DNA of 64,000 nt from Candidatus Eiseniibacteriota bacterium. GTDB taxonomy: Bacteria; Eisenbacteria; RBG-16-71-46; JABDJR01. The position numbers were made by a program, and so were the translations under genes. The stretch is taken from the NCBI GenBank assembly GCA_963762255.1, contig CAVXKA010000002.1:1056001-1120000 (forward strand), read 5' to 3'. This document shows positions 7,556-23,883 of this stretch, one piece after another. Numbering within the stretch: position 1 is the first letter of the stretch; each line of letters opens with the position of its first letter. The notes under the pieces are model-generated. The model saw only the letters and a program-made list of their open reading frames with translations. It was not told the origin of the DNA and made no database searches.

Positions 7556-8587
7556 CTACTTCTGCGCCAGGGTCGGCTTCAAGGCCCCGTTCATGAATTG
7601 GATTGAGGATTCCAGGAGCCCCTTGACATAGGCCGGGTTGTGCACGCCGTGGCTTCGGTCATCCTCGGCCATGGCCAGGTTCCACACCGCTCCCGCGCTG
7701 TCCACAGAGGTCGTCACCACCTTGGGGCCGCCGTTGGCCCACAATCCAGCCGCCGTCAGCAGCTCCGCCAGTTCCTCCGCCATCGCGTCCACCTCGGTCT
7801 GGACGCCTGCGATGTCGAAGCTCTCGACGTCGCTGTGGCACTTCTCGCAGGCTGCGGTGTTCTCCAGCTCCTCCACGCTTCCATCTTCACCCCGGAGGGA
7901 GCCCACCATGTTGAACGAGTGCCCCCCGATCACATTGCTGCTGGTGACCCGGTAATGGCAGTCCAGGCATCCGTCGGTGACGGCGCTGCGGTGCTTGGTG
8001 ATGGCGTAGTCGTACCCCTCGTACTCGTACCCGTTCGAGCCGATCAAGATGTCGCCCTGGTTGCTGTAGTGCGGGCCCCAGTGGGTGCTGTTGATGTTCG
8101 TCCGGGCCGTGCCCTCGGCACCCACGTAGACGTTGACGTCCCGGCGGGAATGATGGCAGGCCACGCAGAGATTGCCGGCCCCCAGATCGAACGTCACCCC
8201 GTTCAAGAGGGTCGCCGTTTCCGTCCAGCGAAGCCCGAAGTCGCCGTCGGTATGCGGGCTGTGGCAAGTGAAGCAGTGAATCACGGTGGGGTTGGTGCTC
8301 GCCGTGACCGTCTCCCCGTTGACCCTCTGGATGAAGCCTTCGCTAATGTGGCACCCCGCGCAGCCGGCGCTTTCCCCTTCGGCCAGGCGGAGACCGCTGG
8401 CGTGGAAGGAATTCGCCCACTGAGCCTCCGCCGCGATCAGGAACGTGTTCTGGTCGCTATGGCACTCGAAGCAGGTCTGGGCCTCGCCGATCTGCTCCAC
8501 GCGAGTGATTTCGCGGTCGCATGCCGCGAGGGACACGACGAGCAGCACCATGAGCGCCGGTACTGCGACTATCGAGAATCGAGACAT
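7556..8587 (-). CDS. Hexaheme c-type cytochrome lipoprotein (OmcB/c552-like C-terminus)
   Basis: LAAC lipobox; 6 CxxCH (CFECH, CAGCH, CFTCH, CVACH, CLDCH, CEKCH); C-terminal DRSHGVHNPAYVKGLL. Confidence 0.85.
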   Translation of the reverse strand: MSRFSIVAVPALMVLLVVSLAACDREITRVEQIGEAQTCFECHSDQNTFLIAAEAQWANSFHASGLRLAEGESAGCAGCHISEGFIQRVNGETVTASTNPTVIHCFTCHSPHTDGDFGLRWTETATLLNGVTFDLGAGNLCVACHHSRRDVNVYVGAEGTARTNINSTHWGPHYSNQGDILIGSNGYEYEGYDYAITKHRSAVTDGCLDCHYRVTSSNVIGGHSFNMVGSLRGEDGSVEELENTAACEKCHSDVESFDIAGVQTEVDAMAEELAELLTAAGLWANGGPKVVTTSVDSAGAVWNLAMAEDDRSHGVHNPAYVKGLLESSIQFMNGALKPTLAQK

Positions 8588-8618
8588 CTCACCCTCCTTG
8601 TCAGCTTTCGCCTTACGA

Positions 8619-10187
8619 CTACTTCGTGTGCAGGTCGTAAGCTACGTTGAACCAAACCACATTGGCGGTGTAGTAACGATCCAAAAGAATGAAATCATCG
8701 TAGTTATACACGTTGTACTTGATCTCGAAGTGGATATCGTCTTTGACGGTGTACATCCCTTCGAAGAATAGAATCGACTTCTCGATGTTCAGATCGGCGC
8801 CCACATCCATGTACGTGAGGCCGCTCGAGAGGCGGATATTCTTGATCCGCTCCAAGTCCACGCGGCCGGTGACGCTGTGGCTCTTGGCGTCGAAGGTGCC
8901 GTTGAGATCCTCGTACTCGTCGTTGGAGTACGCATAGGTTCCCGTCAATCCACCCCACTTCGGATAGGAGTACCGGGCATGACCGGAAACGGTCCGCCCC
9001 TTGGCGTTGACGTCGATGTCGGGAAAGTCCCGCTCACGAACATGGAACCCCGAGCCCAGAGCGAGACCCTTGACGGGCTTCACCTCGACATCTCCGCGAA
9101 AACGGGAGGTTTCGATGTCCTTGAGAAGGGTGAGTTCCTCCTGGTCCTTCTTCACCCTGCCCGCATACCGGAACCTGGCGGTCAGCAGATCGTCGTAACG
9201 GAAGCTCGTGGCGGCCCGCCAACTGTGGTACCGCGTGAGCGTGATGTCATTGTCGTTGATCTCGTAGCCGTAGCCCGCCGAGATGTCGCCGCGCCGGCAG
9301 AAGGCCGTAACGTCGACGTTGTTCTGGAAGCGATCCGTCTTGAGGCTGGTGGATTGGTTGTCGATTCGCTGGGCCTCGAAGTTGTACTTAAAACGCAACC
9401 GGTCGACCGGGCTGAGCACGCCGGTGTACTGGAAGTTCGCCAGGGTGTAGTCCAGATCCCCGGAGGAGAGCTTGCTCACCCCGTAGGCCGCGCGGAACAG
9501 ATGCGTCGACTTCTTGAAAAGGATGCCGGGGGCGGCGATCCGGGCCGACACGACCTGGCCGGTGCGGTCGGCGGCGGCGTTCCGCTCGTCGTTGAAATCG
9601 GAAACGCGATAGTCGACGGCTGCAACCTTCCCACCCTTGCGGGCCTCCGCCGAGAAGCGACCGGAGGAGAGGGAATTGTCGTACCGCCCACCCAGGACGC
9701 TGTTGGTTCCGCCAGGGTAGGACAGGCGGTCCCCGACCCGGGTCAGATAGTTCAAGGATCCCGTCAGGTTGATCCAGCGAGCCGGGGTCAGATGGGCGCC
9801 CAGGTTCCAGTCCCGGCGATCGGATGTCACGTTCCGCTCCGGGTCGAAGACCTGACGGTGCTGATCGAGGGAGGCGGTCAGCTTGAGCTTGCCCGGACGG
9901 CGGTAGAGCAGATTCGCCTGACGACCGTCGAGATTGATTTCCCGCAGGTCGATCATGAGGTAGCTCTCGGGATTCGGGGTTCCGGCCAGGCGGAGTTGGG
10001 TGATGGAGAATCCCTCGTGGATGTTGTAGGTCTCCTGGACCGTCGACCGATCCCCTTGCTCGTCGAGAAGCACGCCGCCCAACTTCACCGTCCCGTTCCA
10101 CGTCCCCGCCTGAAGCGGAGCCGCCCCCAAGGTGACGACGAGCAGGGCCGGAAGCGTCGCTAGCGTCCTCATTCGCATTCGCACCAT
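8619..10187 (-). CDS. Outer-membrane beta-barrel porin, MtrB/PioB-like
   Basis: Signal peptide, amphipathic Tyr/Gly-rich beta strands, and position directly after a DmsE/MtrA-type decaheme. Confidence 0.75.
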   Translation of the reverse strand: MVRMRMRTLATLPALLVVTLGAAPLQAGTWNGTVKLGGVLLDEQGDRSTVQETYNIHEGFSITQLRLAGTPNPESYLMIDLREINLDGRQANLLYRRPGKLKLTASLDQHRQVFDPERNVTSDRRDWNLGAHLTPARWINLTGSLNYLTRVGDRLSYPGGTNSVLGGRYDNSLSSGRFSAEARKGGKVAAVDYRVSDFNDERNAAADRTGQVVSARIAAPGILFKKSTHLFRAAYGVSKLSSGDLDYTLANFQYTGVLSPVDRLRFKYNFEAQRIDNQSTSLKTDRFQNNVDVTAFCRRGDISAGYGYEINDNDITLTRYHSWRAATSFRYDDLLTARFRYAGRVKKDQEELTLLKDIETSRFRGDVEVKPVKGLALGSGFHVRERDFPDIDVNAKGRTVSGHARYSYPKWGGLTGTYAYSNDEYEDLNGTFDAKSHSVTGRVDLERIKNIRLSSGLTYMDVGADLNIEKSILFFEGMYTVKDDIHFEIKYNVYNYDDFILLDRYYTANVVWFNVAYDLHTK

Positions 10188-10188
10188 C

Positions 10189-11154
10189 CTAGTACTGGTG
10201 ACACCCGACGTTGAAACAGCCTTGATCCTGGAGCGATTCGCTCAGGAAATTCCGGCTGACATAGGAACCGTGAATGTCGGTGTGACAGTCGTTGCAGGCC
10301 AGCTCCGCCCACTGGGTCCCGTGATAGGGATTCATCTTGTGGAGTGGGACGGAGTGGCACTGCGCGCAGAGCTGGAAATTCGGAGCCTCGTAGGGCTGCT
10401 TGAGCATCCTCGGCAGATACGATCCGTGGGGTTCATGGCAGGTCATGCACCCACCCTCCTCCGTGGAGTAGTCCACCGAGGCCTGGTGTTCGTAGGGGAA
10501 CGGCCCCTGGAATTCGCCGTGGCAACTCGTACACGCGTCGTTCATCCCATTCATGGAGAGTTCCCGAGTCGTCTTGTCCAGCGTCAAGTGGCACTCGGAG
10601 CACTTCACGATCCCGTCGTTGACGGGATGCCGCGAAGGCTTGGCGAATTCGCTCGCTACTGCGGTGTGGCACCCCTGGCATAGCTCCACCTCGGCCTCCT
10701 CGAGAAGAGAGGGTTGCTTGCCGGCGTGGACGCTGTGACAGGAACTGCAGTTCACGTCGTTTTCGGCGTGGACGTTTCTCTCCATCATGTTCTGTTGGTG
10801 CGGATTCAGATGGCAGGATGAGCAGATCTCGCCCTCGGCGATCGCGCCCACAGCAGCCGGGTTGGTCATCGGATACTGCTCTGGACTCTCCTCGTAGTGA
10901 CGAGAATCCCCGCGGTGACAATCGGTGCAGGCCGTCAGGACCTCGGTCTTCTCGCCGGATTTCTCGAAGAGCCGGTGGGCAGTCAGCGCGAGTGAGGCGT
11001 CAAGTCCCTCGTGGCACGCGAGACACGCCTCGCTCTCACGAGGATTGTCCGCGGCGGAGAGTTCCGGTTGCGACCCGGAAAGGAGGGCGATGAGGAAGGG
11101 GGCAAGGATCAGGACGGGTACGTAGCGACCGAGATGCTTGCTGTGCGCTTTCAA
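10189..11154 (-). CDS. DmsE/MtrA-family periplasmic decaheme cytochrome c
   Basis: 10 CxxCH, GPFPYEH and CHTDIHGS family motifs, extra terminal CFNVGCH; TTG start after GGAGG. Confidence 0.88.
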   Translation of the reverse strand: MKAHSKHLGRYVPVLILAPFLIALLSGSQPELSAADNPRESEACLACHEGLDASLALTAHRLFEKSGEKTEVLTACTDCHRGDSRHYEESPEQYPMTNPAAVGAIAEGEICSSCHLNPHQQNMMERNVHAENDVNCSSCHSVHAGKQPSLLEEAEVELCQGCHTAVASEFAKPSRHPVNDGIVKCSECHLTLDKTTRELSMNGMNDACTSCHGEFQGPFPYEHQASVDYSTEEGGCMTCHEPHGSYLPRMLKQPYEAPNFQLCAQCHSVPLHKMNPYHGTQWAELACNDCHTDIHGSYVSRNFLSESLQDQGCFNVGCHQY

Positions 11155-11446: not shown

Positions 11447-14400
11447 CTACCGGCCCCCTCTTGGACGCGCTTCCAGGTCGCCGCCCTGATGACACTGCAC
11501 GCAGAGCAACCGCGTCTTGTCGTGGGTCAGAAGCTGCTCGTGGTCCGTGCCGTGCGGGTTGTGGCAGGAGGTGCACGTCAGATCCTGGCCGGTTCGCGGA
11601 TCCTTCTGCGGTCCCGAGTACGGGTGATAGTGCGACTCCGAGGCGTCGTGGCACTGGCCGCAAAGCGTCTGCTGGGGCTCGACCAGGATCCCCGCGTTCC
11701 CGCTGCCATGAGGATCATGGCAGGTGGAGCAGCCCCCGATGTCCGGGTGTTGGTACTTCGCGGCGAACATCTTGCGGTCGTGACAGGTCTGACAGGTCTT
11801 GGTCACGTCGTCGCGCACCAGCATCTCCTTGGTGCGGCCGGCGTGAGGCGAGTGGCAGTTGATGCAGCCCATGCCCGTCGTCACCGCGGCGTGCACGACC
11901 GGCTTCTCGGCGTCCTTCGCGTGACCACCGTGGCAGGTCACGCACAACGCCATCCCCTCCGCCTTGAGCCCTTCCTGCCCGGCGTGGCAGGCCATGCAGT
12001 CCTTATCCGCATAGGGTTTGTGCGAGAAGGCCAGCATGAGCCCCGCGTTCTTGGAACCGTGCGGGTCGTGGCAACTCGTGCACTTGGCCCCCTCGGCGTG
12101 GAACCCGCGGTGCTGTGCCAGGAACTGCGGGGCGCGCGGATCGTGGCAGGACGCGCAGAGTTCGCGCACCGGCGTGGTGAGGAGCCCTTCCTCCCGGCCC
12201 ACATGCGGGTCGTGGCATTGCTTGCACCCGGGATCCGTGACCGGTGCGTGCGTGAACTTCTCTTGGGTCTGCTTGATCACATCGCCGTGACAGTCCCCGC
12301 AGAGTTCAGGGCTCGCCTTGTTGAGAAGGCCGGGCTCGAATCCCTCATGGCCGCCATGGCAGGTGCGGCACTCCCCGGCCCGGGCGGGGGCGTGGACCAG
12401 CTCCGGGTTGGCGGAGCGGAGCTGCTGCGAGAGATCCGTGTGGCAGCGCTCGCACAGCTCCGAGGCTGTCTCGGGGAGAAGCTTCTTCCCCGAAGCGGCG
12501 TGCGGGTTGTGGCAGCCGCTGCAATCCCCCATCTCCACCGGGGTATGCAGAGCTTTGGGCGGTTTGGGCGGCTCGATCCCGCCGTGACAGCCGGCGCAGA
12601 GCTCCGCCTCCGGGGCCACCAGTTCCACCTTCGAGTCGGGCGACGGCGGCTTGTGGCAGGTCTCGCAGGAGCCGGGCCCGAACGGCTCGTGGCGCTCCGC
12701 ACGGAGAAGTCCCTTCTCCGATCCACGATGGGGATCGTGGCACGATAGGCAGTCGGTCTGCTCCACCGGGAAGCTCTCGTGGCTCCGCTTGAAGTCGCGA
12801 TCGGCTGCGTCGTGGCACGTCGTGCAAGGCGTTGCGAGGGCCACTCGTCCGTCGGCGGTGCGCGTCTGGTGCGCGCTGTGGCAGGTGGCGCACTCGCCGT
12901 TCTTGACCGGAGCGTGCACGACACCCGTGGCCAAGGACTCCTTCATCGTGTTGTGGCATGTGAAGCAGAGATCCGCGCCCGCCGCGCGCAGCAGGCTCTT
13001 TCCTTCCGGGATCGCGTGAGGATCGTGGCAAGAGTCACACTCACCCCGGGCGACCGGAGCATGCAGAGTAACGGCGGACGCGCCTCCGGCCGGCTCGCCG
13101 TGGCAGGTCGCGCACAGTTCCGCCTGCGTCGTCATGAGGAGCCCGGGCTCCTTCCCGCTGTGCGGCCGGTGGCAGGACGTGCATGCGTCGGTCTCGAAGG
13201 GAGGATGCTTCTGGGGCATCCGCATCTGGTCGACTTGCTCACGGTGGCACTGCAGGCAGAGCGCCGGCTGCGCCTTCGTTCCGAGCGCCGGCAGATCCGA
13301 CCCGTGAGCGGTGTGGCATGCCGCGCAGGTGCCGTCCAGGAACGGGAAGTGGACGATCGGTTCCTTGCCTTCCTTGGCCAGGCCGTCGTGACAGCTCTCG
13401 CATAGAAGGGCCTCGGGCTGGGCGAGAAGGGCCGTCTCCTCGCTTACATGGGGGGCATGACAGGTCCGGCAGTCCCCTTCCATGGGGGCATGGGGGACCT
13501 TTGCCGCCGCTGCCTTCTCCACCGCGGCGCCATGACAGGAGCGGCAGAGCACCTCCGAGGATTCGGTCAGCATCCCCTTCCCACCGCCGCCGTGCGCCTT
13601 GTGACATGAATCGCAGGCGAGCTCATCGAAAGGCTGGTGCTTGGAGGCCAACTCCGGATTCTGGCGCGGGTCCTCGTGACAGACGAAGCAGAGCTCTTCA
13701 GCGCTTCCCTTGAGCAGGCCCTTGCGGTCGGCCTTGTGAGGATCGTGACAGAAGAGGCAATCCCCTTCCGCCGCCGGCGGGTGGCCGTGGTCCGCCTTGG
13801 CCACATCCCCCACGTCGCTGTGGCAGGTGATGCATAGCTCTTCCTTGGGGGCGGTGAGGACTGACGGATCGTCCGGCAACCCGCTGTGGCAGGCCTGGCA
13901 GTCGGCTTCGGCGTAGGGGGCGTGGACAAATCCCCCTCCCTTGCCCTGTGGCGATCCGTGGGGATCGTGACACGACGAACACAAGAGCGCCCGCCACCTC
14001 CGGTCGAGTATGGAGTTCCGGCAACTCGGAAACGGGACCGTGGCAGCGGGCGCAAAGCTCGGCTTCGGGCGCGATCAAGAGCCCGGGATAATCGGACTGA
14101 TGCGGGGCATGGCAGGTCTCGCACTTGCCCTCGGCAAAGGGGGCGTGTTTTGCGGGGGATGCCTGGGCCTGGGCAAGTCGCGGGTGGCATGCCGCGCAGA
14201 CTTCCGCCGCTGGGGCGGCGAGGAGTCCCTTGCTGTCGGAAGCATGCGCGTCGTGGCACGAGACGCAGGAAACGCCCTTCGTCGAAAGATGGTCGAAGCC
14301 GCCCTCGGCGGGCTTCGGGTCACCGCGCCGGGGTGGCAGAGGTGCAGAGTTCGGGAAGATCCTTCTGCAGGATGAGTTTCTGCGCAAACCCGTGTCGTTT

Positions 14401-14605
14401 GTGGCAACTCTCGCAGTCCTCGGCCTTCACCGGGTCGTGCACGACCTTCTTCTGCGCGTACTCGTCCTGCGCCTTCTGATGGCAGTCGTAGCACCGACGC
14501 CGGGGCTGGGCATCCGAGCGCCCCGACAGCAATGACGCCACCACCCCCATGCCTAGAGCAAGAGCGAGTATCGCCAGTGCGACTCAAACGGATGCGGCCG
14601 CTCAT
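11447..14605 (-). CDS. Giant multiheme cytochrome c (~42 CxxCH, ~1050 aa), split by frameshifts near 14580, 14340 and 13985
   Basis: 35 CxxCH in ORF 11447..13984, 4 in ORF 13698..14387, 2 in ORF 14320..14550 and 1 spanning a frameshift; repeated HxP-x5-CxxCH-xPH-x12-LCxxCH units; N-terminal signal peptide. Confidence 0.85.
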
Positions 14606-14606
14606 C

Positions 14607-15087
14607 TCACTTCTCCTTCTCGGACACCTTGGGAGTCTCAGGCTTCGAAGAAGGCCCCTTGTAGCCGAGCACTTCCTTCAGCTGGAAGGAGTAGAACGAT
14701 TTCGACGAGAAATGGGGCGGAAAGTTCAGAAACGCCCAGGAGCTGTCCACCGCTCCGGTGTCGGCGAGGACGAAGACCTGGACGGCGGGGTTGTTCATCG
14801 CCTCGGAGAGGTTCAGCATCTTTCCGTCGATGATGCGGAAGTCGGTCAGGAACTGCTTGACCGTTCCGCTGAGCGGCGTGTCGCCGAAGATAGAACTTCT
14901 CCCCGATTCGGACGGTGTGATCTTCCTTCCAATCCGGGTAGAGCCGGTTCCCCGCCTGAATCACGAACTTGAGCGTCGTGTCGGTGATGGCCGGCACGGG
15001 CTTGGGTGCGGATTCCTGGGAGTGGGCAGGGTCCGCGGTGCACCAGCACATGAGACCCAGCACACTCGCAACCAGCAGGCTCTTCAA
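14607..15087 (-). CDS. Small exported protein (DUF2155-like), frameshift near 14888
   Basis: Signal peptide in ORF 14638..15087 joins the frame of ORF 14607..14819 (FLTDFRI...NNPAVQV...WAFLNFP). Confidence 0.6.
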
Positions 15088-15091
15088 GATG

Positions 15092-16320: not shown

Positions 16321-16347
16321 GTCGTGTGTGACTCCCTGCTGTCCGAT

Positions 16348-18012
16348 CTAAAAGCTTCTGTCGAGGGTGAAGCCGTAGCTGTCGGCTCCGCGGCCGTAAC
16401 GCCACGGATCCTGGAGCGATCTGCGCGCGGCACGGCGCCATTGGACCTTGGCTCGGAGCTCGCTGGGCAACCAGAAGCCCAGATCGACGCCGCCGATTAT
16501 CTCACCGGTGCGCGAGCTCAACACCAGAGACTCCCTGCGGGACCAGTCCACGGAGAGCGTCGCCTCTTCCGAGATGCGTATGCCCGCGCTCACCGTTCCA
16601 AAGCGCTCCTCGCGGACGAGCCGGCCCGTGCCGGCAAGCCGCCGATACGAAGCAATGAAACTCGACCGGGGAACCGGCTGGTACCCAACCGTGTACTGCC
16701 ACTCCTGATCGGTCTGAGCCTGCCCGTCGAACATGGGCAGCGTGTCCCGGCGCCAGGTGATCTCACAGGTCGCGTTGCTGACGGGGGCGGTGCGAAGCTG
16801 GAGCGATCGTCCCCATTGCGTACCGGTCTGTGAGGCGCCGATCACCGCCCTGGAAGCCCGCAACTCGGCCCGCGCGGCGATCCCCTGGCGAAGTCTGCCG
16901 TCCAGCAGACCGTAGACCGTGTTCAGAGGGATGGAGCCGTTCCGGCTTGCCAGGTCCACCGCGCGTTGAGCGCCGGCCTGGAGGACCAGTCCTCGAATGA
17001 GGTCGCGAGCGAATGTCGCCTGGCCCTGCACATAGTCCGAGACGATGTCTCCTCCCGTCTGGGTCTGCTGCCGGTACTCGCGCAGAACACGAAGGCTCAT
17101 CCCGTCAATCGGCCGGTAGTCGGCGCTTCCGCTCAGGAATCGTTCCGCGCGAGACCTGGAGTCGGGAAGCGCATTGTCCTCGGCCCGGCCCCACTGCACC
17201 GTGCCCGATCCGCCGACCGAGAGCCGACGGCTGGGATTCCAGAAGGAGGACACACCGGTGCGCTGGCTGTACTGCTTGCGGTCGCGGTCCCGGGTCGAGT
17301 ACGTGGAGTAGCTGGCGTCATAGGAGGCTTGAGCGGACACGGCGCGCCAGGCTCTCGAGCCTTGTAGGGCGGCCCGCCAGTCATCCGTGTTGGAGCGAGC
17401 ACCCAAAGAGGAGGAAGACGGCGCGCTCTGAAGGCGCCGATAAGCCAAGGTGCTCCCCACGCCACCCCGGGAATAAGCGAGTTGGCCCCGCCAGTCGTCG
17501 GACCAGGAACGCTCGCTGCGCACACCGCTGGCGGTCCACGTGGGCGCGTCTCGATCCAGTCGATGGTAGTGCGCGCTCAGGCTGGGCGCCCCTGCCGGAG
17601 ACGCATTGAGATCCACTTGGGCCACGCGTTCCCGAACGCCGCCCACACCCGAATCCACGCCCTGCCATGGCACGAACTGGGTCCGAATGCGTACCGTCGA
17701 CTTCTGCGCGTCCGCGTACCAGCGATGCCGGAGAAGGTCACCGTCGCCGGACTCGAGCCCGTACCGGGTGTTGCGGCTGTAGTAGGCAAACGATCCTCGC
17801 AGCGTGACCGCGACGCCGCCCGGGAAATCGCTGCTGCCGCGCAGGTCGAGGTTGCTCCGCCAGGTGTCCTCGGAAATCGTGTCCTCCGTGCGCAGGAAGG
17901 AGGACACCCAGTTCCCCTGCATCGCGTGGACCGACCGGGGAGCCAGGAGCGCCAGAGCGGCCAGGAAGCCGACGCGGCAGCCTGCAATGATCGCCACCCG
18001 GAACACCGTCAA
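16348..18012 (-). CDS. Outer-membrane beta-barrel protein
   Basis: Signal peptide, alternating beta-strand pattern and C-terminal YGFTLDRSF beta-signal. Confidence 0.7.
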   Translation of the reverse strand: MTVFRVAIIAGCRVGFLAALALLAPRSVHAMQGNWVSSFLRTEDTISEDTWRSNLDLRGSSDFPGGVAVTLRGSFAYYSRNTRYGLESGDGDLLRHRWYADAQKSTVRIRTQFVPWQGVDSGVGGVRERVAQVDLNASPAGAPSLSAHYHRLDRDAPTWTASGVRSERSWSDDWRGQLAYSRGGVGSTLAYRRLQSAPSSSSLGARSNTDDWRAALQGSRAWRAVSAQASYDASYSTYSTRDRDRKQYSQRTGVSSFWNPSRRLSVGGSGTVQWGRAEDNALPDSRSRAERFLSGSADYRPIDGMSLRVLREYRQQTQTGGDIVSDYVQGQATFARDLIRGLVLQAGAQRAVDLASRNGSIPLNTVYGLLDGRLRQGIAARAELRASRAVIGASQTGTQWGRSLQLRTAPVSNATCEITWRRDTLPMFDGQAQTDQEWQYTVGYQPVPRSSFIASYRRLAGTGRLVREERFGTVSAGIRISEEATLSVDWSRRESLVLSSRTGEIIGGVDLGFWLPSELRAKVQWRRAARRSLQDPWRYGRGADSYGFTLDRSF

Positions 18013-19139
18013 GGAGGCCCGCCTTCACCCTCGCCTGGGTTGTGCACGTTGCTGCCGGTCGGGCTCGAGTAGTCCCGGCCATGGCAGTCGTAACAGCTCT
18101 TGGCGGAGTTGAGACGGTGCGGACCTTGGTCGGGGAGCGTATTCATCACGATCCCCTCTACGGTCTGGGTGCCTGGGATCCCGCCCGACGGGATGTGGCA
18201 ACCGAGGCAGAACTTCCGGCACTGGGCGGCGTCGGTGAGCGTGCTGGTGAGGCCGCTCCAGTTCGTCCGCTGGTCGCTGATCAGGAAGGCGTTGGGCTGC
18301 ACGCTGTTGTTCCCCTGGGAACCGTGAGGGTTGTGGCAGTCGTAGCAGGGAAGCATGTCGCCCACTTGGATATGCGCGGGCCAGGAGATGGCGACGTCGG
18401 GGTTCCGCCGGATGCGGTGCCCGCCGTGGTCCGGGTTCAGGCCGGCATCGTAGTAGTCCTCGATGAACCGGCTGCCAAGATCCATCCCTGCAGGGCCGTC
18501 GTTGCCGTGGCAGTCGAAGCACAACCTATACTGGTCCGGGGCGCCCATCGAAGCGTGGCCGCCGATACCGCCGTACTGCGCGATCAGGAGGTCACGCGGG
18601 TTCGGGGCATCGTGAGGCGTGTGACAATTCAGACAGAGCCCCTGCCCGGAGGGATCCTGTCGCGGCATGTCCGGATCCAACGCATGAGGCGAGATGTAAT
18701 GCCCCGAGGTGGTCATCGCGGGGTTTGTATAGACGCTCTCGCCGGGCCAACGGCCGCGCAGCTCCACTCCGATCCGCCGCACACCGGCGTTGTTGGCTTC
18801 GAAGTAGCCCGCGTCGGGTTCCGTCTCGGGCAGTCGGTCGGTCTCACCCAAGGGATAGTTCTGGGGCCGGGCGCGGTGGCAGGGACCGTCTCCCTGGTCC
18901 CAGAAGGCGATGCGGTTGACGTTGTCGGTGAAGAGTTCGATGGGAAAGACCGGAGCGTTCGGGGAGTCTTCGTGGGTCGCGTGGCACTGCCGGCACTGGC
19001 CGCGCGTGGAGGGAACCGTAACGAGGCGCTGGACCCCGGTGTTGGGGTCGGCGTGGGGATCGTACGTCGTTTGTGCGGAGATGGTCCAGGCGGCCAGAGT
19101 CAGGACGCCGGTGAGAACCACGCCGGAAACTGGTCTCAC
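18009..19139 (-). CDS. Exported multiheme cytochrome c (6 CxxCH plus one degenerate site)
   Basis: CRQCH, CLNCH, CFDCH, CYDCH, CLGCH, CYDCH and a lone GPCH; GTG start after GGAG. Confidence 0.8.
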   Translation of the reverse strand: MRPVSGVVLTGVLTLAAWTISAQTTYDPHADPNTGVQRLVTVPSTRGQCRQCHATHEDSPNAPVFPIELFTDNVNRIAFWDQGDGPCHRARPQNYPLGETDRLPETEPDAGYFEANNAGVRRIGVELRGRWPGESVYTNPAMTTSGHYISPHALDPDMPRQDPSGQGLCLNCHTPHDAPNPRDLLIAQYGGIGGHASMGAPDQYRLCFDCHGNDGPAGMDLGSRFIEDYYDAGLNPDHGGHRIRRNPDVAISWPAHIQVGDMLPCYDCHNPHGSQGNNSVQPNAFLISDQRTNWSGLTSTLTDAAQCRKFCLGCHIPSGGIPGTQTVEGIVMNTLPDQGPHRLNSAKSCYDCHGRDYSSPTGSNVHNPGEGEGGPP

Positions 19140-19283
19140 GCTCGACTCCGTCGGCCACCTTCCGGAACGCGGAATCAACAACGGCAGACCCAGGCTGCGG
19201 GCACCGACAGTGGCCGGATTGTCGGTGCCCGCGCCCAAGCGTCGTATTCAGGCTATGGAGAGATTAGCTCTCCAGGTCTTGCA

Positions 19284-20366
19284 TCACCAGGTCGTCGAGC
19301 TGCCTCCCATGCCGTGGCACTGGCGGCACATGTTGCGGGCGTCAACGCCGTCGTCGCCCTGCTCAGTGACCGTACCGGTTCCCAGCATGTAGATGAGGCC
19401 GAACGCGTTCTGGTTGCCATGACCCTTGTGGCAGCTCATGCACGAGGGGGTCAGGTCGGTGTCGGCAGCCAGATAGGTGCCGGCACGCTTGCCAGCGGGG
19501 GACATGACCTGGACCTGGTTCACCTTGCCGGCGAACCGGCTGAGGCTGGAGTGGCCGCCGCCGACAGCGCCGATGTTCACGGTGCTGGACGGGTGACGAT
19601 GGAACTCCTCCCAGATGCCGCCGCCGATGTCCACGCCGCCGACCTCAGCACCGCCCATGTCGCCATGGAAGTTGGTGTGGCAGGACTTGCACAGGTTGGC
19701 GTAGGCCGACGCAGTCGCCGAGGGCTCGTTGAACGTGATGTGGTTGTAGCCGTAGTGATTGGCACTCGTGCCACTGGAGGCATCCTCGAACACCGAGAGG
19801 GCCAGGTTGTTCGCGCCGTCCGCGTCCAGGCGCGAGTAGCCGATGCTCGCCGTGCCGGACCGGTACAGGTTGCGATACCCGCCGTTGGTGACACCGGTGG
19901 GAAGGCCGCTGGCCCGCCCGTGCGGCGAGTGGCAGTCGGTGCACTCGAGACCGTCTGCATTGGTGAACGTGCCGCCCGGAGCGACGTCGGTCGAGTTCAG
20001 GGTGTGTCCGGCCGCGGCCGGGTAGAGGCCGTTGCCGCCCACCTCGTTCAGAGCGCCAGCCTGACGGACGTAGCCGTTGGTGTGGCCCTCGAACACGTCG
20101 GGCGCCCAGCTCTGCCCGTCATGGCAGCCAAGGCACATGTCGTTGATGTCGTTGCGGAGCAGGAACTCGTACGGGCCAGCGGCGCCGAGCGGGTTATAGA
20201 TCCCACTTCCGTTGGCGTTGTAGCCATGGGTCTGGCTGTAGTGCATCACGTGACAGTCGGAGCAGATCAGGGTCGAGTTCATGTGGAAGTCGCCCGCGAA
20301 GCTCACAGACGCCAGCGCGGCCACAGCGACGAGGACCCCCACGTGGAGCATGAGTTGTTTCCTCAT
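19284..20366 (-). CDS. omcS: OmcS-family hexaheme cytochrome (candidate nanowire subunit)
   Basis: Signal peptide then FHMNSTLICSDCHVMH; GH...APGGT...LECTDCHSPHG, CKSCHTNFH...RHP, CMSCHKGHG and terminal CRQCH in OmcS order. Confidence 0.75.
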   Translation of the reverse strand: MRKQLMLHVGVLVAVAALASVSFAGDFHMNSTLICSDCHVMHYSQTHGYNANGSGIYNPLGAAGPYEFLLRNDINDMCLGCHDGQSWAPDVFEGHTNGYVRQAGALNEVGGNGLYPAAAGHTLNSTDVAPGGTFTNADGLECTDCHSPHGRASGLPTGVTNGGYRNLYRSGTASIGYSRLDADGANNLALSVFEDASSGTSANHYGYNHITFNEPSATASAYANLCKSCHTNFHGDMGGAEVGGVDIGGGIWEEFHRHPSSTVNIGAVGGGHSSLSRFAGKVNQVQVMSPAGKRAGTYLAADTDLTPSCMSCHKGHGNQNAFGLIYMLGTGTVTEQGDDGVDARNMCRQCHGMGGSSTTW

Positions 20367-21412
20367 CACCACCTATACCTCCCTTGCAGTGTTGCGAGAC
20401 TCGCCCCGGCTGCACCGGGGCCTCCTTGCTCGAGGGTCGCACCCGCAGGATGTTCGGATGCCGGTACTTGGACCTCGAGCACCTGGAAGCGAGCTCCCAC
20501 CCGCTCCAAGACCACGAGACGGTCGGGCGCAAGAAACGCGCAGCCGCTCGGATAATCGAACTGGCCGGGACCGTGGCCGAAGCCGCCGATCCGACCCAAA
20601 TACGTGCCCTGCACATCGAAGACGCTGATCGAGTGGCGAACGGTGTCGGTGACCCAGAGCGTCCCACCGGGTCCCCACGTCACGTCGCTCACCATGGAGA
20701 AGGTGCCGTCGCCTTCGCCGTGTCGTCCGAATGCGGTGATAAGGGTGCCTTCAACGGAAAAGAGAAGGACGGGCTTCTCGGCCATCGGGTCGGCCACCGC
20801 GATCATCGTCTCGGTCGGATCCACGTCCAGGGCGGTGGGGCCGGTGAACGGGCCCGTCTCGCTGGAATCGAAGCCGACATGGGTGACCGGTCTGCCATCC
20901 GAATCGCCTACCACAAAGCCGGGCCGCTCACCGCCGCAGAGAAGGTAGATCCGACCGCTCGGGCCGATCACGATGTCCTGAGGACGGGCATCGTCGCCGA
21001 CTCCTTCCGGGAGAAGCGACGGGAGATACGCGAGGTGCGTGCCGCGGGGGGTGAGTACTTCGACTTCGCGGCTCATGTTGTCGACCAGGAAGAGCCGCAT
21101 GCGCCGGTCGACGGCGAGAGACCGGGGCTCGCTGGCGTCCTTGCCGTTCGGCAGATCGAAGGCCACGACGCCCCGGGAGCGATAGGCCGCATCGAACGTG
21201 GCGATCCGGTGATTTCCGGTATCGGCGATGACGATCATGCCCCGGGACGGGTCCGTGACGAGGCCCTGGGGACGCTTGAAGGCGTCGAGAGGCGCCGGGC
21301 CCTGGACGATGGCCAGGACCGACTTGATGGCGGGTTCGCTGGCCTCGGCGGAGGGGGCCAAGGCCACCACCGCTGTACCCAGCGTAACTAGCACCGCGCG
21401 GCGCAGATGCAT
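20366..21412 (-). CDS. Exported NHL-repeat beta-propeller protein
   Basis: FKRPQGL, IADTGNHRI, GEGDGTF, WVTDT and GPGQFDYPSG repeats; stop overlaps the omcS-like start (TGATG). Confidence 0.88.
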   Translation of the reverse strand: MHLRRAVLVTLGTAVVALAPSAEASEPAIKSVLAIVQGPAPLDAFKRPQGLVTDPSRGMIVIADTGNHRIATFDAAYRSRGVVAFDLPNGKDASEPRSLAVDRRMRLFLVDNMSREVEVLTPRGTHLAYLPSLLPEGVGDDARPQDIVIGPSGRIYLLCGGERPGFVVGDSDGRPVTHVGFDSSETGPFTGPTALDVDPTETMIAVADPMAEKPVLLFSVEGTLITAFGRHGEGDGTFSMVSDVTWGPGGTLWVTDTVRHSISVFDVQGTYLGRIGGFGHGPGQFDYPSGCAFLAPDRLVVLERVGARFQVLEVQVPASEHPAGATLEQGGPGAAGASLATLQGRYRW

Positions 21413-21506: not shown

Positions 21507-21524
21507 ATGTGATCTATTTCACAA
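21507..21524. promoter_or_regulatory. Palindromic Rex- or CRP/FNR-type operator
   Basis: TGTGA-TCTATT-TCACA at 21508..21523; minus strand reads TTGTGAAATAGATCACAT, ~95 bp upstream of the NHL start. Confidence 0.65.
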
Positions 21525-21626
21525 AAGCGATAACGCATTTTGCGCGAACGGATTGTGCAGTATATTGGGCACCGTAAAGCATTGACCGCCAACAGAATAG
21601 ATGATTTGTGTCGTGTTTAGGGGCTC

Positions 21627-21671
21627 ACAAAAGAACCGGCCCGCCGAGGCTTTCGCTCCAGCGGGCCGGTT
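21627..21671 (-). terminator. Intrinsic terminator after the imcH-like/tetraheme genes
   Basis: AACCGGCCCGC...GCGGGCCGGTT stem followed on the minus strand by CTTTTGT. Confidence 0.75.
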
Positions 21672-21712
21672 GAGAGGCATACAGGGCCGAGCCCCGAATC
21701 AGGTCGGTCGGA

Positions 21713-22285
21713 CTAGCCGCCCGCCTTCGGGATCGGGTGCGCGATCTTCTTGACGTACTCGGCGAACTTGAACTCCTTGTGGAAGGGGTTCCCCTCCGCC
21801 TTGTGGCAGGTCATGCAGAGCTTCTCATCCGGCGCGAGCAGGCCGACCGTCTCCGGCTTCACCGTGCCCGCGTAGAGCTCCTTCATAACCTTCATGTCCT
21901 TGTATGCGCTCCCCGGGCCATGGCAGCTCTCGCAGGACACGCCCTCTTCGAGCGTGATCTTCTGGGTGGCCAGGTCCTTCATGACCGAGAACGCGGTCAC
22001 GTGGCAGCTCAGGCACTTTTCGGACTTCTGCGGGTCGTCGATCCCCAGTTCCTTGGCCTTCGCCTTCGACTCGGGGCTCGCGAGCGACGCGTACGCCTTG
22101 GCGTGAGCGCTCTTCTCCCACAGCGCGAACTGGTTACCTGTGGCGTCCTTGCTGTGGCACATCTTGCAGTTCTTGATGCCCATGTAGGTGTTCGCCTTGG
22201 CGGGCTCAGCGGCGAAAGCCGCCATGCAGGACAAGGTCAGGAACACCCCCACGAGCGCGACGATCAGAGTCTTCTTCACTGTCAT
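21713..22285 (-). CDS. Periplasmic tetraheme cytochrome c (c554-like)
   Basis: Signal peptide; YMG..CKMCH, W..SAHAKA, CLSCH, GVSCESCHGPGS, CMTCH; Lys-rich. Confidence 0.85.
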   Translation of the reverse strand: MTVKKTLIVALVGVFLTLSCMAAFAAEPAKANTYMGIKNCKMCHSKDATGNQFALWEKSAHAKAYASLASPESKAKAKELGIDDPQKSEKCLSCHVTAFSVMKDLATQKITLEEGVSCESCHGPGSAYKDMKVMKELYAGTVKPETVGLLAPDEKLCMTCHKAEGNPFHKEFKFAEYVKKIAHPIPKAGG

Positions 22286-22368
22286 TGAACCTCCCCTACC
22301 CGATTCCGGGTTCGCTGTCCGACCAGGCACCTTACTGCCGGAAACCGCCCGCCGACAAGCATCTTCTC

Positions 22369-23883
22369 CTACTGCATGGGAGGGAAGACGCTGTCGTCGC
22401 CGGTATGACAGTCCGTGCACGGCATCTCCGTTTCGGCCCCGCCGATATCCGCCGGGTGCCGGAAAGGCAAGCCGGCGGCTACCAGAGTGTCCCCGATCTC
22501 GTGCACGATGCCCTGCGAGGCGATCGTGTGGCAGAGGTTGCAGTCATCGCTGATCCCCTCGCCATCCGCGGTCCGCAGGTCGGAACCGTGACACCGGAAA
22601 CACCCCGGATAGATGAAATGTCCTCGATTCTCGGGATAGCGGTCCCAGCGGACCCGCATCTCCGGAAACATGTTCTTCCCGTAGATATCCTGAACGGCGG
22701 CGATTGCTTCCGGGGGAAGTGAGACTCCCTGTCCCTCGTAGAAGGCTCCCATCGCCAGCGCGATGGAATCTCGTGCCCCTGCCGTCGTGGCGTAGTTCCG
22801 GGAGAGGGCCTCCACCGCCACGCGCTTGATCCACGGGATGCCAGGATCGAGCCTCCCGGAGGCCATCGCCTCGTTCACCGTCTCCATCGGGGAGCGATAC
22901 CGATGTGAGGGCCGGTTGTGGCAGTCCATGCAGTCGAACGGCCGGACGAGCTTCTCAGCCCGCTTGCGCACCAACACCGAGTCCGGGAGCGGCTCTCCGC
23001 CGCGCGTGTAGACGACTTTCCGGCCGTCCTTGGACCAGGTGACTTGGTCGAAGCCCTGGCGCGACCCATCGGTCGCGACATAGGTCATGTGGTTGGCCTT
23101 GTCGATGTGCCAGTGGATGCCGGTGGGCCTTCCTTCGGGAGAGGCCGAGGTGCCTCCCACCCGGACCAGCAGGTTGATCCGCCATTGCGTGTTCTCGCGG
23201 TCACTCAGGAAATGGTCGCGGATGACCTGAGTGGCGGGGAAGAACTTCTGGGGCCAGTGGCACTCCTCGCACACTTCCTGCGCGGGTCGCAGGTTTTCGA
23301 TGGGGGTGGGGATCGGCCGGGGATAAGTACCCAGGACGGTCTTTACGACCTGTCGGGCGCCGGAGAGCTTGCTCTTCACGTACCAGCCCGCGCCGGGCCC
23401 GATGTGGCAGGCAGCGCATTCCACCTGGGCGTGGGAGGAGTTCATGTAAGCGGTGTACTCAGGGTTCATCACCTGATGGCAGACCTTGCCGCAGAAGGAC
23501 ACCGATTCGGTGTACTGGTAGCCCTGGTAGAGACCGATCGTGGTGATGAGGAGGAAGGTGCATGCTCCAACCAGCGCGGTGACCATGAGGTTGCGGTGGT
23601 GGGCGTTGCCGAGATCGATGATGAGCGGCCGTGTCTTCCCCGATTCGCGGCGCTTCTTCTCGCGCCACATCCCGAATGGGACCAGGAGGAGCCCGAGCAC
23701 CATGATTCCGGGAAAGACGATGAACGTGAAGATCCCCAGATAGGGGTTGGAACCCTTGGCGAAGACGCTGAGCAGGAAGAGGATGATGATGGCGGCCAGG
23801 CCGAAGAGGGCCAGCCCCAACCCGAGCAGGGTGAAGAAGTTGTAGACCAACCCGGGGTAGCGCCCCTTCAGGTTCGTTTCCAT
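22369..23883 (-). CDS. imcH: NapC/NirT-family inner-membrane heptaheme quinol dehydrogenase, ImcH-like
   Basis: Three N-terminal TM helices with NPYLGI; FCGKVCH (CX3CH) plus 6 CxxCH; CHIGPGAGWYVKSKLSG and CHNRPSH motifs. Confidence 0.75.
   Translation of the reverse strand: METNLKGRYPGLVYNFFTLLGLGLALFGLAAIIILFLLSVFAKGSNPYLGIFTFIVFPGIMVLGLLLVPFGMWREKKRRESGKTRPLIIDLGNAHHRNLMVTALVGACTFLLITTIGLYQGYQYTESVSFCGKVCHQVMNPEYTAYMNSSHAQVECAACHIGPGAGWYVKSKLSGARQVVKTVLGTYPRPIPTPIENLRPAQEVCEECHWPQKFFPATQVIRDHFLSDRENTQWRINLLVRVGGTSASPEGRPTGIHWHIDKANHMTYVATDGSRQGFDQVTWSKDGRKVVYTRGGEPLPDSVLVRKRAEKLVRPFDCMDCHNRPSHRYRSPMETVNEAMASGRLDPGIPWIKRVAVEALSRNYATTAGARDSIALAMGAFYEGQGVSLPPEAIAAVQDIYGKNMFPEMRVRWDRYPENRGHFIYPGCFRCHGSDLRTADGEGISDDCNLCHTIASQGIVHEIGDTLVAAGLPFRHPADIGGAETEMPCTDCHTGDDSVFPPMQ

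What the first reader, a model, noticed from the sequence alone, without database searches (positions are those of the whole stretch)
7556..23883. Self-contained quinol-to-nanowire electron transfer superlocus in an apparently non-Geobacter bacterium
Seen: 13 co-oriented genes carrying about 81 heme-binding motifs in 7 cytochromes, plus 2 beta-barrels, 2 lipoproteins, a propeller and a small exported protein. Known: ImcH-type quinol oxidases, MtrAB-type porin-cytochrome conduits and OmcS filaments each act in extracellular electron transfer. Inference: one locus encodes the whole chain (inner membrane, periplasm, two alternative outer-membrane exits), mixing Geobacter-type and Mtr-type parts in a lineage not known as electroactive.
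Basis: partly seen in the sequence, partly recalled or inferred. Interest (0 to 1): 0.92.

Follow-up and report, generated by a model that had tools for sequence, protein, structure and literature searches.

The report
Three-module extracellular electron transfer operon, Eisenbacteria
An uncultured soil and sediment bacterium of the candidate phylum Eisenbacteria carries, in one 16-kb operon, what look like all the parts needed to move respiratory electrons from its inner membrane to the outside of the cell, including a distant relative of the Geobacter "nanowire" protein OmcS.

Summary
Window 7556-23883 carries 13 minus-strand genes between housekeeping genes, with 80 CxxCH plus one CX3CH motif in 7 cytochromes. 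Two genes (I, J) are frameshifted in this assembly. Short-read contigs of 95-99% identical relatives carry indels at those sites that reopen both frames, so I read the shifts as assembly errors or strain-specific lesions.

Titles of related genomes place the host in Candidatus Eisenbacteria, not Desulfuromonadia.

The locus is three modules, each found separately elsewhere:
1. A and B: an ImcH-architecture quinol dehydrogenase and a c554-like tetrahaem.
2. C to J: an NHL propeller, an OmcS-related hexahaem, a second hexahaem, a barrel, two PelC-like lipoproteins, a small protein and a 42-haem cytochrome.
3. K, L and M: an MtrA homologue, a modelled 26-strand barrel whose best structural match is MtrB, and a surface hexahaem lipoprotein.

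The OmcS-like gene occurs in 62 of 206 phylum genomes. The PelC-like pair lies beside it in 54 of those 62.

Function, filament formation and direction of electron flow remain inferred. I rate it a new variant of known kinds, of moderate to high interest.

The parts
22369..23883 (-). A: inner-membrane multihaem quinol dehydrogenase with ImcH architecture (504 aa)
   Evidence: Three hydrophobic segments at 11-47, 47-74 and 98-119. CX3CH (CGKVCH) at 131. Six CxxCH. PF03264 NapC/NirT E 2.2e-8 at 100-187. NrfH TIGR03153 E 3.4e-15 at 105-209, below its cut-off.
21713..22285 (-). B: periplasmic tetrahaem cytochrome, c554-like (190 aa from the internal ATG)
   Evidence: PF13435 Cytochrome_C554 E 8.2e-17. 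Four CxxCH. One N-terminal hydrophobic segment.
20366..21412 (-). C: exported NHL-repeat beta-propeller (348 aa), no lipobox
   Evidence: PF01436 NHL E 1.6e-15. First gene of the conserved C-to-J unit.
19284..20372 (-). D: OmcS-related hexahaem cytochrome (362 aa); overlaps the end of C by 7 bases
   Evidence: Six CxxCH. The family profile A2 has OmcS 6ef8 as top PDB match, E 7.9e-7, with the N-terminal CxxCHxMH aligned. M43 and H44 are invariant in 45 sequences. 709 relatives at E<=1e-3 among the 8000 candidates scored.
18009..19238 (-). E: second hexahaem cytochrome (start uncertain, up to 409 aa), no solved relative
   Evidence: Six CxxCH plus an invariant Cys120-His121. Only a local, weak likeness to D's family (hhalign probability 84%). 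No credible PDB match: the only row is an unrelated protein at E 0.27.
16348..18012 (-). F: putative outer-membrane beta-barrel (554 aa); overlaps the end of E by 4 bases
   Evidence: No Pfam or NCBIfam family. N-terminal hydrophobic segment. All five C-termini read (the window's, three orthologues read to their ends and one more) end in Phe. Atlas neighbours are outer-membrane barrel clusters. Not folded.
15718..16320 (-). G: PelC-like outer-membrane lipoprotein (200 aa)
   Evidence: Lipobox VVGC. The G/H profile A5 matches PelC 9h80_C at E 1e-14, 5t11 and 5t10 at about 1e-12, and GNA1162 4hrv at 5.7e-7.
15092..15712 (-). H: PelC-like outer-membrane lipoprotein, paralogue of G (206 aa)
   Evidence: Lipobox LAAC. 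26% identical to G in alignment A5. Same PDB matches as G.
14638..15087 (-). I: small exported protein of no known family, frameshifted near 14886 in this assembly
   Evidence: The G007 orthologue (183 aa) matches in two frames. Contigs of runs X1 and X4 lack one base at 14886. With that change it aligns 1-181 in one frame. No Pfam family.
11447..14580 (-). J: 42-haem cytochrome with an N-terminal membrane anchor or signal (about 1040 aa; the 5' end is approximate); two frameshift sites in this assembly
   Evidence: 35 CxxCH in the open frame 11447-13984. The N-terminus lies in two other frames. The G007 orthologue is intact, 1066 aa with 42 CxxCH. Indels at 13982, 14320 and 14338 in related contigs reopen a 1044-codon frame with 42 CxxCH. 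18 paired-CXXCH stretches and 8 DmsE-family stretches. The C-terminal part 678-816 matches MtrA 6r2q_A 180-326 at E 1.4e-16.
10189..11154 (-). K: periplasmic decahaem cytochrome, MtrA/DmsE homologue (321 aa)
   Evidence: Ten CxxCH. TIGR03508 covers 3-257 of 258 positions at 176.5 bits, cut-off 192.2. 6r2q_A E 1.6e-29. Adjacent to L in 39 of 39 related loci.
8619..10187 (-). L: 26-strand outer-membrane sheath, MtrB-like by structure (522 aa)
   Evidence: AlphaFold2 model with a 32-sequence alignment: pLDDT 86.3, 26 strands, short strands 2-4, a small helix between strands 1 and 2. Foldseek top match 6r2q_B at E 1e-15, TMq 0.77; the next match is at 4.3e-8, TMq 0.50. No Pfam family and no PDB sequence match.
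7556..8587 (-). M: hexahaem lipoprotein, presumed cell-surface partner of K and L (343 aa)
   Evidence: Lipobox LAAC. Six CxxCH. Downstream of L in 34 of 39 related loci; 3 of the 5 misses are contig ends. No PDB relative.
7462..7498 (-). Terminator-like hairpin after M, the likely operon end
   Evidence: 17-pair stem with 14 G-C pairs. Of the minus-strand sites inside the gene block, none has a stem longer than 6 pairs.

Best explanation
The locus is one operon for extracellular electron transfer in a member of Candidatus Eisenbacteria. It is built from three modules that also exist separately in other genomes.

Module 1.
- A is an inner-membrane, ImcH-type multihaem quinol dehydrogenase. It takes electrons from the quinol pool.
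- B is a c554-like periplasmic tetrahaem that carries them on.

Module 3 is a porin-cytochrome conduit of the Mtr type.
- The decahaem K (an MtrA homologue) sits inside the 26-strand barrel L, which is MtrB-like in structure only.
- K hands electrons to the surface hexahaem lipoprotein M.

Module 2 is a second, self-sufficient exit.
- J is a 42-haem, MtrA-like polymer long enough to bridge the periplasm.
- F is a barrel, flanked by two PelC-like lipoproteins, G and H.
- D is an OmcS-related hexahaem and E is a second hexahaem. Both are presumed extracellular.
- C is an NHL propeller.
- I is a small periplasmic protein.

I think it most likely that F, G and H form the outer-membrane channel or anchor, and that D is displayed through or on it, possibly as an OmcS-like polymer, with J wiring it to the inner membrane.

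Shown by computation: gene content, homologies, export signals, the barrel model of L, and conserved synteny and modularity.

Inferred: the electron path, outward direction, polymerisation of D, and the export or anchor role of F, G and H.
For: Content and boundaries. A terminator-like hairpin lies only after M. The two largest intergenic gaps, B-C at 300 bp and J-K at 292 bp, fall on the module borders. Other gaps are at most about 85 bp, or the genes overlap (coordinates).

A.
- It meets the ImcH architecture of PMC6295460 (passages): 495-519 aa, three N-terminal helices, CX3CH next to them, six CX2CH.
- It has NapC/NirT and NrfH likeness at residues 100-209.

K and L. MtrB has 26 strands, the first four short, and a helix in the loop between strands 1 and 2 (PMC7198977, passages).

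The K-L-M trio is conserved. K is present in 39 of 39 related loci and M in 34 of 39.

D is related to OmcS.

G and H are PelC-like. PelC forms a periplasmic ring of twelve lipoproteins on the PelB export barrel (PMC12141448, start of the abstract in the search listing).

Synteny.
- All 13 genes in G007.
- A to J in G001.
- A-B-K-L-M contiguous in G004.
- C to J alone in G038, G045 and G021.
- Modules 2 and 3 together, without A or B, in G144.

Tallies over 206 phylum genomes, G000 included.
- A: 44.
- D: 62.
- G/H profile: 70.
- L: 22.
- F: 11.

D and the G/H pair lie on one contig, 3.4-4.7 kb apart, in 54 of the 62 D-bearing genomes.

L was not found in families f13 (0 of 3) and f15 (0 of 13), where module 2 occurs. 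Module 2 therefore does not depend on module 3.

The genome has cytochrome c maturation genes (3 matches). It holds 281 CxxCH motifs in 31 ORF pieces that carry at least 3 motifs each.

Published nanowire clusters of OmcE and OmcS likewise combine multihaem cytochromes, beta-propeller proteins, the subunit gene and a large barrel (PMC13712944, passages).
Against: - There are no expression or physiological data.
- I and J are frameshifted in the window's own sequence. The repair rests on contigs of 95-99% identical relatives at depth 2.7-6 from two runs, not on this strain's reads.
- A could not be compared directly with Geobacter ImcH.
- K scores 176.5 bits, below the NCBIfam cut-off of 192.2.
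- L has no sequence match to the Pfam MtrB/PioB family or to 6r2q_B.
- The match of D to OmcS is weak (31.9 bits) and comes from a profile only. D alone finds nothing.
- The model of D is poor (pLDDT 52) and found no fold match.
- E, F, I and M have no characterised relatives.
- F was never folded.
- C is not a lipoprotein, unlike the propellers of OmcE clusters.
- The MtrA-like C-terminus of J fits a plain second porin-cytochrome reading as well as the filament-base reading.
Confidence: 0.75

Rival explanations
1. Module 2 is simply a second porin-cytochrome conduit of the PCC3 or Pcc kind. The C-terminus of J threads barrel F. D and E are monomeric surface cytochromes. No filament is made. 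G and H only stabilise the barrel.
For: - The only solved relative of J is MtrA, and the match is to the half of MtrA that lies inside MtrB.
- Conduits with periplasmic cytochromes of 21-27 haems are described in iron oxidisers (PMC10734462, passages).
- Module 2 occurs without module 3, so it must cross the outer membrane by itself.
- The likeness of D to OmcS is distant.
Against: - The OmcS-like gene is tightly and widely coupled to the PelC-like pair (54 of 62 genomes). PelC-type lipoproteins are known from polymer export.
- D keeps the N-terminal CxxCHxMH invariant. In OmcS, from recall, this motif supplies the histidine given to the neighbouring subunit.
Confidence: 0.3
2. The operon works inwards. 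It takes electrons from Fe(II), minerals, cathodes or partner cells and delivers them to the quinone pool or to oxidases.
For: - Mtr-type conduits are reversible and occur in iron oxidisers (PMC10734462 and PMC6295460, passages).
- The genome has four haem-copper oxidase family matches.
- Cyc2-type iron oxidase homologues were reported in Eisenbacteria MAGs (PMC9769843, passages).
Against: - ImcH homologues had been found only in Fe(III) reducers in the 2018 survey (PMC6295460, passages).
- No Cyc2 or carbon-fixation link was examined here.
Confidence: 0.2
3. The locus is decaying. I and J are pseudogenes, and the chain is broken in this organism.
For: Three shift sites within about 950 bp of the window's sequence.
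Against: - The remaining 845 codons of J are open with all 35 motifs intact.
- The other 11 genes are full length against G001 and G007.
- Related contigs from two runs of two studies carry exactly the compensating indels, and these reopen both frames.
- Relatives assembled into few contigs show similar splits in other genes: F in G007, and C, D, E, F and H in G021. This points to consensus errors.
Confidence: 0.08

Closest known systems
ImcH (GSU3259) inner-membrane quinol oxidase family of Geobacter and others
   Same: The length is 504 aa, within 495-519. There are three N-terminal helices, an atypical CX3CH right after them, six CX2CH, and a NapC/NirT-like region (PMC6295460).
   Different: No direct sequence comparison with a named ImcH was possible. 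Eisenbacteria is not among the 12 phyla of the 2018 survey. That survey also found no mtrAB beside imcH. Here, and contiguously in G004, an MtrAB-like pair is in the same operon.
MtrCAB porin-cytochrome complex of Shewanella (PDB 6r2q)
   Same: K is a decahaem homologue of MtrA (E 1.6e-29). L is modelled as a 26-strand barrel whose best fold match is MtrB. The gene order is cytochrome then barrel, followed by a surface lipoprotein cytochrome.
   Different: L is 522 aa against 649 in the chain, is 12% identical, and matches neither Pfam MtrB_PioB nor MtrB by sequence. The surface partner M has six haems and no likeness to MtrC.
OmcS nanowire and its omcS-companion (osc) cluster in Geobacter sulfurreducens
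   Same: D is a six-haem protein with collinear motifs and a profile match to OmcS. Its neighbours are a second hexahaem, a barrel, two lipoproteins, a beta-propeller and a giant multihaem cytochrome. This recalls the secondary descriptions of the osc operon, in which OscE/F/G act in secretion and OscD in morphology (PMC13194489 passage), and of barrels in OmcS and OmcE regions (PMC13712944 passages).
   Different: The homology is remote. There is no prolyl isomerase (OscH-like) gene in the locus. Whether OscE and OscF are PelC-like could not be checked, because the primary paper (Shen et al. 2025) is not held. Filament formation is untested.
PelBC exopolysaccharide export complex of Pseudomonas aeruginosa
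   Same: G and H match PelC at E 1e-14 and are lipoproteins encoded next to a barrel.
   Different: There are two paralogues instead of one PelC. Barrel F shows no sequence likeness to PelB. There are no Pel synthesis genes. The neighbours are cytochromes.
PCC3 and Uet porin-cytochrome systems of iron oxidisers and cathode oxidisers
   Same: Very large periplasmic multihaem cytochromes, a porin, extracellular cytochromes, and NHL-repeat proteins in Uet (PMC10734462 passages).
   Different: No sequence comparison was made. Here the periplasmic cytochrome has 42 haems, and the surface cytochrome is OmcS-related.

Membership tests
ImcH family | Length 495-519 aa with three N-terminal transmembrane helices | tested here: met
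   504 aa. Hydrophobic segments at 11-47, 47-74 and 98-119. Criterion from PMC6295460 (passages).
ImcH family | Atypical CX3CH next to the membrane domain, followed by six CX2CH | tested here: met
   CGKVCH at 131. CxxCH at 156, 205, 318, 428, 448 and 489.
ImcH family | NapC/NirT likeness around the third helix and the first haems | tested here: met
   PF03264 E 2.2e-8 at 100-187. TIGR03153 E 3.4e-15 at 105-209, below that model's own cut-off.
ImcH family | Sequence homology to GSU3259 or another named ImcH | not testable with these tools
   No named ImcH sequence could be fetched, and no library model of the family exists.
MtrA/DmsE decahaem family | Ten CxxCH and a full-length match to the family model above its cut-off | tested here: inconclusive
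   Ten motifs. TIGR03508 covers 3-257 of 258 positions but scores 176.5 bits against a cut-off of 192.2. MtrA of 6r2q matches at E 1.6e-29 over 37-297.
MtrB/PioB barrel family | Sequence match to Pfam MtrB_PioB or to MtrB | tested here: not met
   No Pfam or NCBIfam family. A 32-sequence profile finds no PDB chain at E<=10.
MtrB/PioB barrel family | 26-strand sheath encoded next to the decahaem | tested here: met
   The model has 26 strands at pLDDT 86.3. The best fold match is 6r2q_B at E 1e-15, TMq 0.77. K is adjacent in 39 of 39 loci.
OmcS family | Six haem motifs collinear with OmcS and detectable homology | tested here: met
   Profile A2 against 6ef8: E 7.9e-7, profile positions 122-319 against chain residues 124-336, plus the N-terminal stretch. 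The single sequence finds nothing.
OmcS family | Histidine after the first haem motif that ligates a haem of the next subunit (role in OmcS recalled, not read here) | tested here: met
   CSDCHVMH in D aligns with CEGCHTMH in OmcS. M43 and H44 are invariant in 45 sequences.
OmcS family | Polymerises into an extracellular filament | not testable with these tools
   The AlphaFold2 model without haems has pLDDT 52. No complex prediction could be run.
PelC-like lipoproteins | Sequence homology to PelC and a lipobox | tested here: met
   9h80_C E 1e-14, 5t11 2.2e-12, 5t10 4.1e-12. Cys after the signal segment in G and H.
PelC-like lipoproteins | Twelve-membered ring docked on an export barrel | not tested
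   The complex job F+G+H was never accepted.
osc (omcS-companion) cluster | OscD-H homologues beside the OmcS-like gene | not testable with these tools
Only the gene-type composition could be compared.

The most novel reading that the evidence does not exclude
Module 2 is a dedicated machine for cytochrome filaments. A heteromeric ring of two PelC-type lipoproteins (G and H) on barrel F exports and anchors a polymer of the OmcS-related hexahaem D. The 42-haem cytochrome J plugs the base of that filament into the respiratory chain. Under this reading, a secretion principle known from exopolysaccharides (PelBC) was recruited for protein nanowires. About 30% of Eisenbacteria species (62 of 206 genomes) would then be nanowire producers in soils and sediments.
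Probability: 0.35. Interest if true: 0.8.

Novelty: new variant of a known kind. Interest (0 to 1): 0.6.

Why it matters
Extracellular electron transfer has been dissected almost only in Geobacter and Shewanella. This locus joins parts of both schools, an ImcH-type quinol oxidase and an OmcS-type cytochrome with an MtrAB-type conduit, in one operon. The host phylum has no cultured member that I know of and is common in soils, sediments and aquifers.

The modular pattern gives testable units. A-B-K-L-M is a minimal chain. C to J is a stand-alone exit.

The tight coupling of an OmcS-like gene to PelC-like lipoproteins (54 of 62 genomes) offers a concrete handle on an open question: how cytochrome nanowires cross and attach to the outer membrane.

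It also suggests that Eisenbacteria take part in iron, manganese or humics reduction, or in interspecies electron transfer. If so, this bears on carbon and methane budgets of anoxic soils.

Tried and rejected
- D and E alone against PDB sequences: no OmcS match.
- AlphaFold2 of D with 45 sequences gave pLDDT 52. Foldseek with that model found nothing. This is uninformative, because haems are absent from the model.
- Profiles of E, F and L, and M alone, against PDB sequences: no credible match. E and F gave only unrelated rows at E 0.27 and 0.3; L and M gave nothing relevant.
- The small protein I (G007 orthologue) has no Pfam family.
- The primary osc paper (PMC11845295) and the OmcS structure paper (PMC6720112) are not held. 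Searches for PelC with OmcS and for OmcS with His16 found nothing relevant.
- Complex prediction never gave a result.
  - F+G+H: queue full.
  - F + J C-terminus: queue full, and no usable answer.
  - The cap was reported as used.
  - So no verdict exists on any binding.
- The look-up of sequencing runs: no RNA holder was listed, and no run holds more than 0.20 of the sampled words. Nothing can be said on expression or on habitat from these shares.
- I first considered that K-L-M is the only conduit and F-G-H purely a secretion pore, in a single chain. I dropped this as the leading reading, because module 2 occurs in genomes where L was not found.
- The sigma-70 promoter scan found 0 sites. 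This is not informative for this phylum.

Full report
**What is there.**

The stretch 7556-23883 is filled by 13 ORFs on the minus strand, all with the codon-position G+C pattern of real genes in this 66-67% G+C genome. I label them A to M in the order of transcription.

The flanks are unrelated. On one side lie NadA, pirin, a metallo-beta-lactamase-fold protein, DinB, NifU and RNase D-like genes. On the other lie an aldo/keto reductase, a thioredoxin-reductase-like flavoprotein and alanine dehydrogenase.

A 17-pair terminator-like hairpin follows M at 7498-7462. Of the minus-strand sites inside the gene block, none has a stem longer than 6 pairs.

Genes overlap or lie at most about 85 bp apart, with two exceptions. 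The gaps B-C (300 bp) and J-K (292 bp) turn out to be module borders.

**Haem count and frameshifts.**

As the ORFs stand they hold 73 CxxCH motifs. The large cytochrome J begins abruptly, and its first ~220 codons lie in two other frames. The small gene I also changes frame once.

The orthologue of J in G007 is intact, at 1066 aa with 42 motifs.

I laid contigs of four public runs on 13800-15200. Contigs of X1 and X4 come from two studies, are mostly 95-99% alike, and have depth 2.7-6. They differ from the window by these indels:
- one base left out at 13982 (X4 only; X1 does not cover that place);
- two bases left out at 14320, and a C put in after 14338;
- one base left out at 14886.

These are the places I had inferred for the shifts. 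Applying the four changes in a script gives one 1044-codon frame with 42 CxxCH for J. It also gives an I that aligns to residues 1-181 of its G007 orthologue in one frame.

Relatives assembled into few contigs show similar splits in other genes: F in G007, and C, D, E, F and H in G021. I therefore read the shifts as consensus errors or strain-specific lesions, not as decay of the system.

**Host.**

The window lies on contig 2 of a 4.14-Mb, three-contig genome. Its estimated completeness is 93.6% and contamination 0.1%.

G007 is in the same family but another genus, and G017 is in the same class. The host is thus an Eisenbacteria member, not Desulfuromonadia.

The genome holds 31 ORF pieces with three or more CxxCH each, 281 motifs in all. 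These include further clusters on contigs 2 and 3. It also has three cytochrome c maturation matches and four haem-copper oxidase family matches.

**Module 1 (A, B).**

A is 504 aa. It has three hydrophobic segments, a CX3CH (CGKVCH) at residue 131 directly after the third segment, and six CxxCH. It matches NapC/NirT and NrfH models over residues 100-209.

These are the published marks of the ImcH family: 495-519 aa, three helices, an atypical CX3CH, six CX2CH, and NapC/NirT likeness (PMC6295460, passages). I could not compare A with a named ImcH.

B is a c554-like tetrahaem with a signal segment.

**Module 3 (K, L, M).**

K has ten CxxCH. It covers the whole DmsE-family model at 176.5 bits, against a cut-off of 192.2. 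It matches chain A of 6r2q, the Mtr complex, at E 1.6e-29.

L has no Pfam or NCBIfam family, and a 32-sequence profile finds no PDB chain. Its AlphaFold2 model, however, is confident (pLDDT 86.3). It shows 26 strands, short strands 2-4, and a small helix between strands 1 and 2. MtrB is described with exactly these traits (PMC7198977, passages).

Foldseek puts 6r2q_B first at E 1e-15 and TM 0.77. The next match is a 22-strand transporter at 4.3e-8 and TM 0.50.

M is a hexahaem lipoprotein without solved relatives.

The 39 related loci fetched from species-representative genomes carry these title labels:
- Eisenbacteria: 10.
- Krumholzibacteria: 11.
- Latescibacteria: 2.
- Gemmatimonadota: 2.
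- Other labels: 3.
- Unclassified: 11.

K lies beside L in 39 of 39 loci, and M follows in 34 of 39. Three of the five misses are contig ends.

**Module 2 (C to J).**

C is an exported NHL propeller.

D has six CxxCH. Alone it finds nothing in the PDB. A profile of 45 family members has OmcS (6ef8) as its best match at E 7.9e-7. Haem motifs 3-5 are aligned, and so is the mature N-terminus including CxxCHxMH. Met43 and His44 are invariant in the family. From recall, the corresponding His16 of OmcS ligates a haem of the next subunit. For OmcE, the same principle is stated in PMC13712944 (passage).

E is a second hexahaem with only a local likeness to D and no solved relative.

F has no family. 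It has a signal-like segment and a conserved C-terminal Phe, and its neighbours in the protein atlas are outer-membrane barrels.

G and H are paralogous lipoproteins. Their joint profile matches PelC (9h80_C at E 1e-14; 5t11 and 5t10 at about 1e-12) and GNA1162 (5.7e-7). In the representative library the family has 4799 clusters at E<=0.001. Many members are ~360 aa with two copies of the domain. The names found for them are CsgG/HfaB, TolB-like and OmpA family. PelC forms a ring of twelve lipoproteins under the PelB export barrel (PMC12141448, start of the abstract in the listing).

J consists of 18 paired-CXXCH units. Its only solved relative is MtrA, matched by J's C-terminal part against the MtrA half that lies within MtrB.

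**Modularity.**

- G007 has all 13 genes in the same order.
- G004 has A-B-K-L-M contiguous.
- G006 and G017 have K-L-M.
- G013 has K-L.
- G001, of the same genus, has A to J up to its contig end.
- G038, G045 and G021 have C to J in the same order, with none of A, B, K, L or M within the 18-20 kb fetched.
- G144, a one-contig genome of another family, has D-like, E-like, G, H, J-like (42 motifs), C-like, K, L and M on one strand, without A or B.

Counts across 206 phylum genomes, G000 included:

| Query | Genomes with a match | E-value limit |
|---|---|---|
| A | 44 | 1e-30 |
| D | 62 | 1e-20 |
| G/H profile | 70 | 1e-12 |
| L | 22 | 1e-20 |
| F | 11 | 1e-3 |

Only 7 of the F matches are strong, so the barrel diverges fast.

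For the 62 genomes with D:
- In 54, the G/H pair lies on the same contig, 3.4-4.7 kb away.
- In 5, it lies on another contig.
- In 3, it was not found. In two of these, D sits at a contig edge.

L was not found in the families where module 2 stands alone: f13 (0 of 3) and f15 (0 of 13). Module 2 must therefore cross the outer membrane by its own means.

**How it most likely works.**

1. Quinol is oxidised by A.
2. Electrons pass to B and to the long periplasmic J.
3. One branch leaves through K inside L to M.
4. The other branch leaves through the F-G-H assembly to D and E outside.

Outward flow is inferred from the ImcH-type entry point, which was known only from Fe(III) reducers in the 2018 survey. 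Inward flow is not excluded.

Two questions remain open: whether D polymerises, and whether F houses J, D or both. The complex predictions that could have addressed them never ran.

**Comparison with the literature.**

- Eisenbacteria MAGs have been listed among carriers of FeGenie iron-cycling genes (PMC8478452).
- They have been listed as carriers of Cyc2 homologues (PMC9769843).
[quoted passage not shown] Only passages of these three papers were read.
- Searches pairing 'Eisenbacteria' with multiheme, cytochrome, extracellular electron transfer, porin-cytochrome or MtrB found no description of such a locus.
- The 2018 survey of quinol oxidases found no mtrAB next to imcH (PMC6295460).
- The osc paper (Shen et al. 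2025), which claims a widespread OmcS assembly machinery, could not be read. It or its supplements may already cover this phylum or the PelC likeness.

**Verdict.**

All the parts belong to known kinds. Their union in one operon, in this phylum, with a PelC-like pair tied to an OmcS-like gene, is a new variant.

Noticed in passing
window 13982, 14320-14338, 14886; also 14555-14581 and 15110: The assembly differs by single-base indels from short-read contigs of 95-99% identical relatives. Four of these sit in coding sequence and break I and J. The others lie in the I-J spacer and near the end of H.
   Followed up: yes
G000 contig C2:796-807 kb, C2:1124-1142 kb (4 kb beyond the window's end) and C3:873-883 kb: Further multihaem clusters with ORFs of 11, 19 and 13 motifs; of 13, 10 and 7 motifs; and of 14, 9 and 36 motifs plus several small pieces that look like another frameshifted giant cytochrome.
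   Followed up: no
window 28416-35041 (-): A membrane-bound complex I / Mbh-like module: a 49-kDa (NiFe large subunit-like) protein, two antiporter-like subunits, and NuoK-like and NuoH-like subunits. An EIIA/HTH regulator follows. The first two ORFs overlap by about 430 bp, which may be another frame problem.
   Followed up: no
proteins P0122-P0270: Many relatives of G and H are single proteins of about 350-370 aa with two PelC-like domains, a fused form of the G-H pair. A few are much longer (551-1045 aa).
   Followed up: partly
window 18009-19238 (E), residues 120-121: An invariant Cys-His without a partner cysteine, in addition to the six CxxCH, in all 5 orthologues aligned. It may be a single-cysteine haem site or a ligand.
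   Followed up: no
window 10189-11154 (K), residue 313: A C-terminal CFNVGCH (CX4CH) beyond the ten canonical motifs.
   Followed up: no
window 52121-52975 (+): A CitF-like ORF of 284 aa that covers only positions 101-344 of the 466-position model. It may be truncated or frameshifted. It lies within a citrate lyase / aconitase / PrpD gene group.
   Followed up: no
L073+L074 (G144:C1:3100000-3131999): In this other family the E-like gene has 9 CxxCH instead of 6. The NHL propeller lies after J instead of before D.
   Followed up: partly
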